From Candidatus Woesearchaeota archaeon (GTDB taxonomy: Archaea > Nanobdellota > Nanobdellia > Pacearchaeales > GW2011-AR1): a stretch of 24,338 bases of DNA. Within the stretch, counting starts at the first letter, position 1, and the number at the start of each line of letters is the position of its first letter. Shown here one piece after another: positions 13,086-14,272 of this stretch. Location of the stretch: assembly GCA_964372435.1 (NCBI GenBank), contig CAYJRI010000001.1, positions 8,813 to 33,150 on the forward strand, given 5' to 3'. The notes below the pieces were generated by a model, which saw nothing but the letters and a program-made list of their open reading frames with translations, did no database searches and was not told the DNA's origin. The position numbers and the translations under genes were made by a program.

Positions 13086-13159
13086 TGCCCCCGGCAGGAC
13101 TCGAACCTGCAACCTAAAGGTTAGGAACCTTTTGCGCTATCCAATTGCGCCACAAGGGC
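13086..13159 (-). tRNA. tRNA-Arg (CCT)
   Basis: GCCCTTG/CGGGGGC acceptor, GCGC/GCGC D-stem, AAAGG-TTCCTAA-CCTTT anticodon arm, GCAGG-TTCGAGT-CCTGC T-arm. Confidence 0.95.
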
Positions 13160-14155
13160 ACTGATTTTATTGATCTTATTGATCTTATTAAGATGTTTAG
13201 GATTAGATGACCCAATTTCTTCCATCCATTTGCGGAGTTGTTTACTTCCTTTTAAAGTTATTCTATCTAATATTTTTCTTTCATATTCTCCTTTTTTGTA
13301 AATAGGTTTAAAACCCACACTAATAAGAATATCATATAACTGCTTAATAAGAATTGAAGCTTTCATTTGTATCGAAATGCAAGGATAAGGATGGCCAGCA
13401 GGAGTTTTATCTAAATAGAAGCAACCATCTGTATCAAAGATCCCTCTTATAACATATTTTAATTTATCAGAGCCCAAAGAAAGAATTTTATCGCTTATTT
13501 TAATATCAACTTTTTTTCCAATAGGAAATCCTAATTCTTCATTCAATGCTTTTAAAAATGTTTTATGAGTAAAGTTTATTTCAATTGCATTAAATTTAGG
13601 TTTTTCTTTTAAATAAGCATTTCTATTACAAATTTTTTCAATATTTTGTTTGCAATATAATAAAAATTCTCTATCCAATTTTGCATGTCCACTTATTCCT
13701 ATCAGCCAAATAATTTTATTTTTCCATTTGTATTTCCCAATCCAACCATCTCCTAATAAAACTCCATATAATTCTAAAAATAACTGATCAGATATATTAA
13801 GAATAAATGGTTTTTCATCGTATCTTTTTAACATAGCTTTTTTACCGCCATTTGACTGCCTTTTTCTTATTTCCTCTTTACCATATTTCTCTACAATAAT
13901 CTTGTAGGTTTTCTTACCGCCTTTAGTTCTGCCCCAATTATCTTCTTGCTTATCTAGAATACTTAATTGATTTTTTATATTTTTAGGGATAAAAATTTCG
14001 GGAATATACCTATTTGAATTATAAAACCACATATCAAGCGTATTCTTTGGAATATTTATTTTTTGAGATAATTCATTTAGTGATAAACAATTATACTCTC
14101 TCTTTAAAAAATTTAATAATTTCAACTTTGATTCTTTAGATAATAAAACCCTCAT
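13121..14155 (-). CDS. Free-standing double-motif LAGLIDADG homing endonuclease with N-terminal HTH-like region
   Basis: LYGVLLGDG and IRGIFDTDG motifs; no Hint/intein termini; last 12 codons plus stop lie inside tRNA-Arg. Confidence 0.9.
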   Translation of the reverse strand: MRVLLSKESKLKLLNFLKREYNCLSLNELSQKINIPKNTLDMWFYNSNRYIPEIFIPKNIKNQLSILDKQEDNWGRTKGGKKTYKIIVEKYGKEEIRKRQSNGGKKAMLKRYDEKPFILNISDQLFLELYGVLLGDGWIGKYKWKNKIIWLIGISGHAKLDREFLLYCKQNIEKICNRNAYLKEKPKFNAIEINFTHKTFLKALNEELGFPIGKKVDIKISDKILSLGSDKLKYVIRGIFDTDGCFYLDKTPAGHPYPCISIQMKASILIKQLYDILISVGFKPIYKKGEYERKILDRITLKGSKQLRKWMEEIGSSNPKHLNKINKINKISALVAQLDSAKGS

Positions 14156-14200
14156 TGAGAATCAAATATAGTGAACCATATAAATTTTTCTCTCAACAAA
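13160..14200 (-). mobile_element. Putative homing-endonuclease cassette inserted between a tRNA 5' fragment and the intact tRNA-Arg
   Basis: Bounded by the tRNA-like fragment (14215-14201) and tRNA-Arg G1 (13159); own promoter; visibly AT-rich relative to the core genes. Confidence 0.6.
14179..14190 (-). promoter_or_regulatory. BRE+TATA promoter of the LAGLIDADG gene
   Basis: GAAAAA-TTTATA with the first T 29 nt before the ATG at 14155 (leaderless spacing). Confidence 0.75.
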
Positions 14201-14215
14201 CTAAGCTACGAGGGC
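14201..14215 (-). pseudogene. Orphan tRNA 5' fragment (positions 1-15), probably the former tRNA-Arg start
   Basis: GCCCTCG-TA-GCTT-AG fits acceptor/8-9/D-stem/D-loop start; pairs with the tRNA-Arg 3' strand CGGGGGC; TTTAAA 28-23 nt upstream. Confidence 0.65.
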
Positions 14216-14272
14216 TTGCCATTACCAAGAAAACATGTTTAAAATACATTGCTTCTCTTTTTGGGAGAATAA

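What the first reader, a model, noticed from the sequence alone, without database searches (positions are those of the whole stretch)
13086..14244. LAGLIDADG gene splits a tRNA start, supplies a new one, and its ORF ends in the anticodon loop
Seen on the minus strand: TATA (14243-14238), tRNA nt 1-15 GCCCTCGTAGCTTAG (14215-14201), a second BRE/TATA (14190-14179), the endonuclease ORF, then an intact tRNA-Arg whose nt 1-39 encode the last residues ALVAQLDSAKGS, with the stop TAA spanning anticodon-loop nt 36-38. The orphan acceptor strand pairs with the tRNA 3' strand better (1 G:U) than the resident one (2 G:U), and the two 5' ends differ (TAGCTTAG vs TGGCGCAA). This fits a recoded, cleavage-resistant replacement. 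It is not a plausible intron, because the fragment D-stem GCTT cannot pair with GCGC. RNase P cleavage of the joint transcript would remove the stop codon from the endonuclease mRNA, a possible built-in silencer (inference).
Basis: partly seen in the sequence, partly recalled or inferred. Interest (0 to 1): 0.9.

Follow-up and report, generated by a model that had tools for sequence, protein, structure and literature searches.

The report
Endonuclease cassette replacing a tRNA gene
A selfish DNA-cutting gene, travelling with its own promoter and its own complete arginine tRNA, has landed inside this tiny archaeon's original arginine-tRNA gene and left a stump of it upstream; the same design recurs in many related archaea and at other tRNAs, and I found no paper describing it.

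Summary
On the minus strand there is an orphan tRNA 5' piece (about 26 nt, not 15). A BRE/TATA box follows, then a 344-aa double-motif LAGLIDADG ORF. The ORF's last 39 nt are the first 39 nt of an intact tRNA-Arg(CCT), and its stop is U36-A37-A38.

Comparison with relatives changes the reading. About 22 other genera of the same order (Pacearchaeota-like DPANN) carry the same unit at the same locus. Paralogues build the same layout at tRNA-Arg(GCG), Ala, Thr and Gln.

In six loci a 3' orphan also survives just after the resident tRNA, and its acceptor strand pairs 7/7 with that locus's 5' orphan. So the cassette is promoter + endonuclease + a whole tRNA, inserted into the native gene between about nt 25 and 33.

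Distribution is patchy within genera, some copies are decaying, and copies from one family nest inside another family's clade. All of this fits homing.

Cleavage of the native allele, immunity of the cassette tRNA and RNase-P silencing remain inferences. This scan has flagged the same design before on other genomes. The closest published analogues are fungal mitochondrial mORFs and phage intronless homing.

The parts
14236..14245 (-). TATA-like box (tattttaaac) about 28 nt before the orphan; probably the promoter of the disrupted native tRNA gene
   Evidence: Read directly. A match to a consensus only. Similar boxes precede the orphans in several relatives.
14190..14215 (-). 5' orphan of the native tRNA-Arg(CCT) gene: acceptor strand GCCCTCG, TA, D-stem GCTT, D-loop, GAGA(G)
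   Evidence: Unique in the genome up to 2 mismatches. Ranks 3rd among non-tRNA sites in a tRNA 5'-end profile. An equivalent orphan precedes the cassette in most of the orthologous loci examined. Four of those loci show none (L039, L070, L071, L073); L042 could not be judged because its ORF 5' end is decayed.
14178..14189 (-). Cassette promoter (BRE/TATA, aaaaatttatat). The TATA starts 29 nt before the ATG, which suggests a leaderless mRNA
   Evidence: AAAAnTTTAAATA directly follows the orphan in nearly all orthologues. Function is inferred.
13121..14155 (-). LAGLIDADG homing-endonuclease gene, 344 aa: N-terminal helical (HTH-like) domain plus two LAGLIDADG core domains; stop codon included
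   Evidence: Pfam LAGLIDADG_3 matches 23 of 24 aligned homologues. GDG (135-137) and DTDG (241-244) are invariant. The AlphaFold model has pLDDT 86. Foldseek hits PI-PfuI, I-AniI, I-Tsp061I and I-DmoI at E 1e-10 to 1e-7, with target TM up to 0.78.
13163..13189 (-). In-frame 9-nt tandem triplication (NKI NKI NKI) in the linker between the conserved SSNPKHLNKI motif and the tRNA
   Evidence: Other homologues have one copy.
13086..13159 (-). Cassette-borne, complete tRNA-Arg(CCT). Its first 39 nt also encode the disordered ORF tail and supply the stop codon. It is the only tRNA-Arg(CCT) found in this 71%-complete genome
   Evidence: Rfam 67.3 bits. tRNA census. It has the A15:U48 pair that is the minority form in this order (10 of 13 tRNAs carrying it are ORF-linked), whereas the orphan has G15. 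The tail has pLDDT below 50.

Best explanation
The region is a compact mobile cassette of about 1.1 kb. It holds its own BRE/TATA promoter, a free-standing LAGLIDADG homing-endonuclease gene and a complete tRNA-Arg(CCU) gene. The cassette sits inside the archaeon's original tRNA-Arg(CCU) gene. The insertion point is 5' of the anticodon, between about nt 25 and nt 33. The first ~26 nt of the native gene remain upstream as a dead stump. The native 3' part has been lost in this genome but survives in several relatives.

Shown here: the architecture, its recurrence, the matching orphan halves, the intact catalytic motifs and fold, and the patchy, partly decayed distribution.

Inferred: the enzyme cuts intact native-type tRNA-Arg(CCU) genes near the D-stem / anticodon-stem region. 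Double-strand-break repair then copies the cassette from an occupied allele. The cell survives because the cassette brings a working tRNA whose sequence differs from the target: in the D-arm in the window, and in the anticodon stem in most loci. That copy is therefore not cut.

The ORF has no stop codon of its own. It runs into the tRNA and ends at the first in-frame stop, here U36-A37-A38. There is no room for a separate tRNA promoter, so tRNA and mRNA probably come from one transcript. Cutting out the tRNA with RNase P would then leave the mRNA without a stop codon. That could keep endonuclease levels low, but this is speculative.
For: 1. Same unit, same place. ORFs 43-65% identical end inside, or in one case 60 nt before, tRNA-Arg(CCT) in about 20 other genera of the order, within the Leu-Arg-Gly tRNA cluster. 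In 21 of 22 loci with an adjacent tRNA the ORF stops inside the tRNA or reads right through it.

2. A 5' orphan (nt 1 to about 25), directly followed by AAAAnTTTAAATA, precedes most of the orthologous ORFs.

3. 3' orphans that start at the anticodon loop follow the resident tRNA in L035, L040, L065, L066 and L067, and in L057 for tRNA-Gln. In all six the 5' and 3' orphan acceptor strands pair 7/7. Five of the six 5' orphans mismatch the resident 3' strand. Four different native acceptor stems occur among the five tRNA-Arg loci. A broken gene cannot maintain such covariation, so several native alleles were invaded independently.

4. Paralogues about 30% identical show the same layout at Arg(GCG), Ala(GGC), Thr(GGT, twice) and Gln(TTG).

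5. Window-specific. Positions 15 and 48 covary in all the tRNAs compared (A15:U48 or G15:C48). The five tRNA-Arg 3' orphans all carry C48. The window's orphan has G15 but the resident has A15:U48.

6. Mobility. Orthologues were found in 1 of 35, 1 of 21, 1 of 15, 1 of 12, 1 of 11 and 1 of 6 genomes of single genera. Decayed copies occur in G017, G198 and G355. Copies from family f9 nest inside a family f1 clade with 98-100% support.

7. The enzyme looks active. Both catalytic Asp motifs are invariant and the fold is LAGLIDADG.

8. In 4 of 5 loci with a 3' orphan, the anticodon stems of resident and native copies differ at 3 or more of 5 positions.
Against: - No biochemical evidence exists for cleavage, target site or immunity.
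- The window has no 3' orphan. The right-hand junction here cannot be placed beyond nt 48, and a chimeric resident tRNA is not excluded.
- Eight ORF-linked tRNAs keep the common G15-type D-arm.
- G055 has the GTGGCGCAA arm with no endonuclease. The D-arm difference may therefore be a captured natural variant rather than selected recoding.
- L033 carries a decayed cassette tRNA followed by an intact native-type tRNA, which the simple model does not predict.
- No endonuclease-free allele of this species was seen in four metagenome runs.
- No near-isogenic pair of empty and occupied sites was obtained.
- No RNA data exist for co-transcription.
Confidence: 0.8

Rival explanations
1. The endonuclease gene is inserted near nt 15/16 and brings only a recoded 5' part (nt 1 to about 39). 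This part is joined to the native 3' half, so the resident tRNA is a chimera.
For: The window has no 3' orphan. The orphan's acceptor strand pairs slightly better with the resident 3' strand than the resident 5' strand does. A deletion between the cassette tRNA and a 3' orphan could produce such a chimera. About half of the relatives also lack a 3' orphan.
Against: The orphan keeps tRNA likeness to about nt 25-26, not nt 15. Six relatives keep a complete resident tRNA plus a separate 3' orphan. The window's resident has the cassette-type A15:U48 pair, whereas the five tRNA-Arg 3' orphans all carry C48, so it is cassette-derived at least to nt 48. The acceptor argument rests on one C/T difference, and the cassette consensus 5' strand is itself GCCCTCG.
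Confidence: 0.12
2. The ORF lies in a giant tRNA intron (bulge-helix-bulge or group I), or the locus is a split tRNA. In that case the orphan is exon 1 and is joined to the downstream tRNA body at the RNA level.
For: This genome has many tRNAs with long introns. A hypothetical product made of orphan nt 1-26 plus resident nt 27-74 still folds as a cloverleaf, at -26.0 against -28.9 kcal/mol.
Against: The resident tRNA is complete on its own at 67 bits. The Rfam scan at E up to 1 finds no intron family here. No helix suitable for a BHB motif joins the two junctions, only A/U-rich matches. In 9 of 12 loci the orphan mismatches the resident 3' acceptor strand, and where a separate 3' orphan survives it pairs with that instead. 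The orphan D-stem has a mismatch with either possible partner.
Confidence: 0.03
3. The tRNA fragments are att-type duplications left by an integrase-driven element, or remnants of a tandem tRNA duplication. On this view the LAGLIDADG gene is merely parked between them and has nothing to do with the break.
For: Archaeal plasmids and viruses integrate into tRNA genes and leave partial direct repeats. The Caldiarchaeum tRNA-Thr locus was explained this way (PMC3293823).
Against: No integrase is present. The insert is only promoter + endonuclease + tRNA, with no spare bases at either end. The repeats are not identical cores. The same break region recurs at five other tRNA species, each with its own paralogue. 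The orphan halves flank the cassette as one split gene, not as a tandem copy.
Confidence: 0.04
4. The 15-mer is a chance resemblance to a tRNA start.
For: Two coding-sequence sites in the genome score as high in the tRNA 5'-end profile.
Against: The positional chance is about 1e-4. Equivalent orphans stand at the same place in most of the orthologous loci examined and in 5 paralogous loci.
Confidence: 0.01

Closest known systems
Fungal mitochondrial mobile endonuclease ORFs (mORFs) that create gene hybrids: Allomyces macrogynus atp6; Glomus atp6, atp9, cox2, nad3 (PMC3630166, read)
   Same: A free-standing endonuclease ORF inserts into an essential gene without an intron. It carries a foreign, diverged copy of the displaced gene part. 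The native part is left beside it as an untranslated orphan.
   Different: The mORFs target protein genes in organelles, replace the C-terminal part and are often fused in frame with the host gene. Here the host gene is a tRNA in a cellular archaeal chromosome. A whole gene copy with its own promoter is supplied, the orphan is mainly the 5' part, and the ORF overlaps the RNA gene.
Intronless homing by free-standing endonucleases of T-even phages (SegF, SegG, MobE; SegB in the T4 tRNA gene cluster, PMC2330249, listed)
   Same: The endonuclease gene is not in an intron. It is thought to cut the allele that lacks it and to be inherited together with flanking, cleavage-resistant sequence. SegB also acts in a tRNA gene region.
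   Different: The phage enzymes are GIY-YIG or HNH, sit between genes and do not disrupt their target gene or leave orphan halves. Here a LAGLIDADG gene sits inside the broken target and is physically fused to its replacement.
Caldiarchaeum subterraneum tRNA-Thr(GGU) locus: a 5' fragment, a 1,868-bp insertion, then the tRNA (Sugahara et al. 2012, PMC3293823, read)
   Same: An archaeal tRNA 5' fragment (nt 1-27) lies upstream of an ORF-bearing insertion that abuts an intact tRNA of the same anticodon. The break is near nt 24-27.
   Different: The authors proposed a recombinase or pNOB8-like transposable element. No LAGLIDADG gene, ORF/tRNA overlap or matching 3' orphans were reported. I did not test whether their ORF is related.
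Archaeal monomeric LAGLIDADG endonucleases I-DmoI, I-Tsp061I and the PI-PfuI endonuclease domain
   Same: Same two-domain fold (Foldseek E 1e-10 to 1e-7, target TM 0.75-0.78) and same catalytic motifs.
   Different: Those enzymes are encoded in rRNA introns or inteins, so the host gene is restored by splicing. No PDB chain matched the sequence profile at E 0.01 or better. This protein has an extra ~120-residue N-terminal helical domain.
Synthetic home-and-rescue / cleave-and-rescue gene drives (my own knowledge, not checked in the library)
   Same: The logic matches: a nuclease targets an essential gene and is tightly linked to a recoded, uncuttable rescue copy.
   Different: Those are engineered Cas9 systems in insects. 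This would be a natural protein-only version, and its cleavage and immunity are not yet shown.

Membership tests
LAGLIDADG endonuclease (double-motif, monomeric) | Two LAGLIDADG motifs, each ending in a catalytic acidic residue | tested here: met
   LLGDGW (G135, D136, G137) and FDTDG (D241, T242, D243, G244) are invariant in 24 homologues.
LAGLIDADG endonuclease (double-motif, monomeric) | Profile match to a curated family | tested here: met
   Pfam LAGLIDADG_3 scores 23.5 bits against a cut-off of 22.5 for the window protein. 23 of 24 homologues match, best E 1.3e-8. The match is marginal for the single sequence. The PDB sequence profile search found nothing.
LAGLIDADG endonuclease (double-motif, monomeric) | Two alpha-beta-beta-alpha-beta-beta-alpha domains forming a DNA-binding saddle | tested here: met
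   The model has pLDDT 86. Top PDB folds are PI-PfuI, the bI3 maturase, I-AniI, I-Tsp061I and I-DmoI.
LAGLIDADG endonuclease (double-motif, monomeric) | Site-specific DNA cleavage leaving 4-nt 3' overhangs | not testable with these tools
   Needs purified protein and substrates.
Homing (mobile) endonuclease gene | Sporadic distribution at one homologous site, with decaying copies and incongruent phylogeny | tested here: met
   One carrier among 6-35 genomes of single genera. Pseudogenes in G017, G198 and G355. Family f9 copies nest within an f1 clade.
Homing (mobile) endonuclease gene | Cuts the allele that lacks it, while the occupied allele is immune | not testable with these tools
   Indirect evidence only. 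The native gene is broken at one region in all loci. Resident tRNAs differ from native copies in the D-arm or the anticodon stem.
Intron- or intein-encoded homing endonuclease | The ORF lies inside a self-splicing or BHB intron, or an intein, that restores the host gene | tested here: not met
   No intron family found by Rfam at E up to 1. No BHB-capable pairing. The orphan does not fit the resident tRNA in 9 of 12 loci. The resident tRNA is complete.
Free-standing endonuclease with gene replacement (mORF-like / intronless homing) | Own expression signals; carries a diverged copy of the disrupted gene; the native part is left as an orphan | tested here: met
   Conserved BRE/TATA box (consensus level only). 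Complete cassette tRNA plus matching 5' and 3' orphans.
Integrase-mediated integration into a tRNA gene | Tyrosine or serine recombinase gene and identical att core repeats | tested here: not met
   The cassette contains only the LAGLIDADG ORF and the tRNA. The repeats are diverged.

The most novel reading that the evidence does not exclude
This is a natural 'home-and-rescue' drive. A protein endonuclease destroys an essential single-copy tRNA gene and is welded to an uncuttable replacement tRNA. The weld is so tight that the tRNA supplies the ORF's stop codon and both come from one transcript. tRNA maturation by RNase P would then strip the stop codon from the endonuclease mRNA and throttle the enzyme. 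A radiation of such cassettes, each matched to a different tRNA, would be a main source of orphan tRNA fragments in DPANN archaea, and possibly of odd tRNA gene structures as well.
Probability: 0.35. Interest if true: 0.85.

Novelty: new variant of a known kind. Interest (0 to 1): 0.72.

Why it matters
Homing endonucleases are thought to survive in essential genes only by hiding in introns or inteins that splice themselves out. Here the escape is different: the element breaks the gene and brings a spare.

That logic is known from a few fungal mitochondrial protein genes and resembles engineered rescue gene drives. It does not appear to have been described for tRNA genes or for archaeal chromosomes.

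It gives a concrete, testable origin for orphan tRNA fragments and for replaced tRNA alleles in ultrasmall archaea, a long-debated topic in tRNA gene evolution.

It also offers a set of natural meganucleases whose targets can be read from the orphans. The stop codon lent by the tRNA suggests an unusual link between tRNA processing and expression of the endonuclease.

Tried and rejected
- A PDB search with a sequence profile of 24 homologues found nothing at E 0.01 or better. The fold search was needed instead.
- The run search was made with kind 'any', not as an RNA search. It listed only DNA metagenome runs and no RNA run holding the stretch, so co-transcription and RNase P processing could not be examined.
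- Laying contigs of four DNA runs confirmed the assembly but showed no endonuclease-free allele of this species. The joints seen near the tRNAs come from other organisms' tRNA genes.
- I sought an empty site in a same-genus partner of G312 (G143). Its assembly shows no tRNA-Arg(CCT) match.
- The same-genus pair G370 (occupied) and G023 (empty) is syntenic, but only about 67% identical in the flanking gene. That is too diverged to fix the junction base by base.
- Intron and split-tRNA readings: rejected.
- D-arm recoding as the sole basis of immunity: rejected. Eight linked tRNAs keep the common G15-type D-arm, and G055 has the variant arm without the ORF.
- A separate tRNA promoter inside the ORF's 3' end: TATA-like stretches exist, but in relatives they lie only 8-20 nt before the tRNA start, which is too close (read). 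In the window the triplicated NKI linker places TTAATAAG at about -32 to -24. This is not conserved.
- The HNH gene next door has no relative in 200 genomes of the family. It was not pursued further.
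Full report
**What is in the window**

All features are on the minus strand.
- A TATA-like box lies at 14245-14236.
- A tRNA-like 5' piece starts at 14215.
- A BRE/TATA box lies at 14189-14178.
- An ATG at 14155 opens a 344-aa ORF that ends at 13121.
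- tRNA-Arg(CCT) lies at 13159-13086 (ARAGORN; Rfam 67.3 bits).

The ORF's last 39 nt are the tRNA's first 39 nt. The stop TAA is the last anticodon base plus A37 and A38.

The 15-mer is unique in the 1.01-Mb genome with up to 2 mismatches. In a profile of this genome's tRNA 5' ends it scores 14.75 bits. Only two non-tRNA sites score higher, and both are coding sequence. tRNA likeness continues beyond the 15-mer through a D-loop and GAGA(G) to about 14190, so the orphan is about 26 nt long.

Contigs from four metagenome runs reproduce both junctions exactly.

**The protein**

- Pfam support for the single sequence is marginal: LAGLIDADG_3 scores 23.5 bits against a cut-off of 22.5. However, 23 of 24 aligned homologues match.
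- The GDG and DTDG motifs are invariant.
- An AlphaFold model (pLDDT 86) matches PI-PfuI, I-AniI, I-Tsp061I and I-DmoI.
- A PDB sequence-profile search found nothing.
- Residues 1 to about 120 form an extra helical domain. Weak Cro/CI-type HTH hits appear in single homologues.
- The tRNA-encoded tail (residues 333-344) is predicted disordered.

More than 120 homologues at 48% identity or above exist in public data. Those that carry a name are 'hypothetical protein' from Pacearchaeota or Nanoarchaeota MAGs.

**The comparative result that changes the reading**

A search of 200 genomes of the family and 400 of the order found orthologues (43-65% identity) in about 22 other genera. Where the contig allows a view, they lie in the same Leu-Arg-Gly tRNA cluster.
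- In 21 of 22 loci with an adjacent tRNA, the ORF runs into tRNA-Arg(CCT).
- It stops at GUAG (nt 8-10), at the D-loop GGAUAG, at CCUAA in the anticodon loop, or only after the whole tRNA in G370.
- So the ORF has no stop codon of its own. The tail varies in length and is conserved only because the tRNA is conserved.

Most of the orthologous loci also have an upstream orphan resembling nt 1 to about 25 of a tRNA-Arg with the common GTAGCTCAG D-arm. AAAAnTTTAAATA follows it immediately. Four loci show no orphan (L039, L070, L071, L073), and L042 could not be judged.

**The cassette carries a whole tRNA**

In five orthologous loci the resident tRNA is followed, directly or after a few bases, by a second partial tRNA. 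These loci are L035 (G025), L040 (G102), L065 (G458), L066 (G459) and L067 (G312). The partial tRNA begins at the anticodon loop (U33-CCU-AA) and runs to the 3' end.

In each locus its acceptor strand pairs 7/7 with that locus's 5' orphan. The stems are GCATCCG, GCTCCTG, GCTTCCG, GCGCCCG and GCTCCCG. The same holds at a tRNA-Gln locus (L057). In five of these six loci the 5' orphan mismatches the resident 3' strand.

The two orphans are therefore the halves of one native gene. It is split between about nt 25 and nt 33 by promoter + ORF + complete tRNA, with no spare bases at the ends.

Four different, internally complementary native stems are seen among the five tRNA-Arg loci. A broken gene cannot keep such covariation, so several distinct native alleles were invaded independently.

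**Window-specific point**

Positions 15 and 48 covary in all the tRNA-Arg(CCT) genes compared: A15 with U48, or G15 with C48. The five tRNA-Arg 3' orphans all carry C48. The window's orphan has G15, but the resident has A15 and U48. So the resident is cassette-type at least to nt 48. It is not merely a new 5' start.

The window shows no 3' orphan. An HNH gene follows the tRNA, and that gene has no relative in 200 family genomes.

- Of 8 relatives with no endonuclease next to the tRNA, 7 have the orphan-type D-arm (GTAGCTCAG-like). These are G026, G033, G019, G023, G006, G040 and G041.
- Of 20 ORF-linked resident tRNAs, including the window's, 11 have GTGGCGCAA or a close variant with A15:U48. 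A further copy in G155 is decayed.
- Eight linked tRNAs have the common G15-type D-arm, and one (G102) is intermediate.
- G055 has the variant arm with no endonuclease and no scar.

The prediction holds in kind. D-arm recoding, however, is neither necessary nor exclusive. In 4 of 5 loci with a 3' orphan, the anticodon stems of resident and native copies differ at 3 or more of 5 positions. That region flanks the break and is the likelier seat of immunity. This is an inference.

**Generality**

Paralogues about 30% identical and about 330 aa long show the same layout at four other tRNA species: Arg(GCG), Ala(GGC), Thr(GGT, two genomes) and Gln(TTG). The layout is orphan, TATA box, then an ORF ending inside a complete tRNA. 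Shorter paralogues also sit near tRNAs but without clear orphans.

**Mobility**

- Orthologues occur in only one of 35, 21, 15, 12, 11 and 6 sampled genomes of single genera.
- Three copies are decaying (G017, G198, G355).
- In a maximum-likelihood tree the two copies from family f9 nest within an f1 clade with 98-100% support.

This is the usual pattern of invasion, decay and loss for homing endonuclease genes.

**Rival explanations**

- Intron or split-tRNA reading: rejected. The resident tRNA is complete, Rfam finds no intron, no BHB-type pairing links the junctions, and orphans do not fit resident tRNAs in 9 of 12 loci.
- Integrase-type integration: rejected. There is no recombinase and no identical att core.
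- Chance: excluded by the recurrence across loci.

**What is known**

Full-text searches found no paper that links LAGLIDADG genes to tRNA fragments or to cassette-borne tRNAs in archaea. The survey of archaeal group I introns found them only in rRNA genes.

The closest published cases are:
- fungal mitochondrial mORFs that bring a foreign gene end and orphan the native one;
- intronless homing in T-even phages, including SegB in the T4 tRNA cluster;
- the Caldiarchaeum tRNA-Thr locus, with a 5' fragment and a 1.8-kb ORF-bearing insertion, which its authors explained by a recombinase.

Earlier notes of this scan describe the same design on other genomes. I used them only as leads to those papers.

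**Verdict**

The mechanism (target cleavage, immunity, RNase-P coupling) is inferred, not shown. I rate it a new variant of a known kind, of considerable interest.

Noticed in passing
window 15166-15106 (-), just upstream of tRNA-Leu(CAA) 15105-14973; also genome contig C23 8294-8356: A second 'orphan 5' piece + insert + complete tRNA' in the window. GCTGGAGTGCCGGAGC matches nt 1-16 of tRNA-Leu at 15 of 16 positions. It is followed by a 45-nt element with the hairpin AGGAAACC..GGTTTCCT and then the full tRNA. tRNA-Leu(GAG) on contig C23 has the same layout with an exact 16-nt repeat. The same short element occurs inside the introns of several tRNAs of this genome (Phe, Ser, Gly, Gln) and after tRNA-Leu in G055. 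It may be a miniature mobile intron-like element.
   Followed up: partly
window 12473-13024 (-): A 183-aa HNH endonuclease gene (Pfam HNH, E 1.5e-9) with its own TATA-like box is wedged between tRNA-Arg and tRNA-Gly. These two tRNAs are 40-120 nt apart in most relatives. No homologue at E 1e-10 or better was found in 200 genomes of the family. It may have removed the 3' orphan.
   Followed up: partly
window 13163-13189 (-): An in-frame triplication of a 9-nt unit (Asn-Lys-Ile x3) in the linker before the tRNA. Homologues have one copy. It creates a TATA-like TTAATAAG about 24-32 nt before the tRNA start.
   Followed up: no
L033 (G155:C20): Here the endonuclease ORF ends in a decayed variant-type pseudo-tRNA, which is followed by an intact native-type tRNA-Arg(CCT). 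The simple insertion model does not predict this. It may reflect rescue by gene conversion or a second copy.
   Followed up: no
L061 (G370:C5): The ORF reads through the entire tRNA-Arg(CCT) and stops only after it. G023, of the same genus, has the empty site, with tRNA-Leu and tRNA-Arg only 11 nt apart and no separate promoter.
   Followed up: partly
L005 (G055:C37): A tRNA-Arg(CCT) with the variant GTGGCGCAA D-arm but no endonuclease, orphan or scar. Only the PIN gene lies between tRNA-Leu and tRNA-Arg. It is either the source lineage of the cassette tRNA or a clean loss.
   Followed up: partly
window 14273-14815 (-): A PIN-domain gene between tRNA-Leu and the orphan. It occupies the same place in G011 and G055, so it is part of the host locus and not of the cassette.
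   Followed up: partly
whole genome G000: At least 15 of the 28 tRNA genes ARAGORN detects carry introns of 11-187 nt. The assembly is 71% complete, and only one tRNA-Arg(CCT) is present.
   Followed up: no
L078 (GCA_035453125.1 contig, protein P0119): A homologue labelled 'Candidatus Paceibacterota bacterium' lies among archaeal genes (ribosomal L21e, RNA polymerase Rpb4 and N subunits). The taxon label of that MAG looks wrong.
   Followed up: partly
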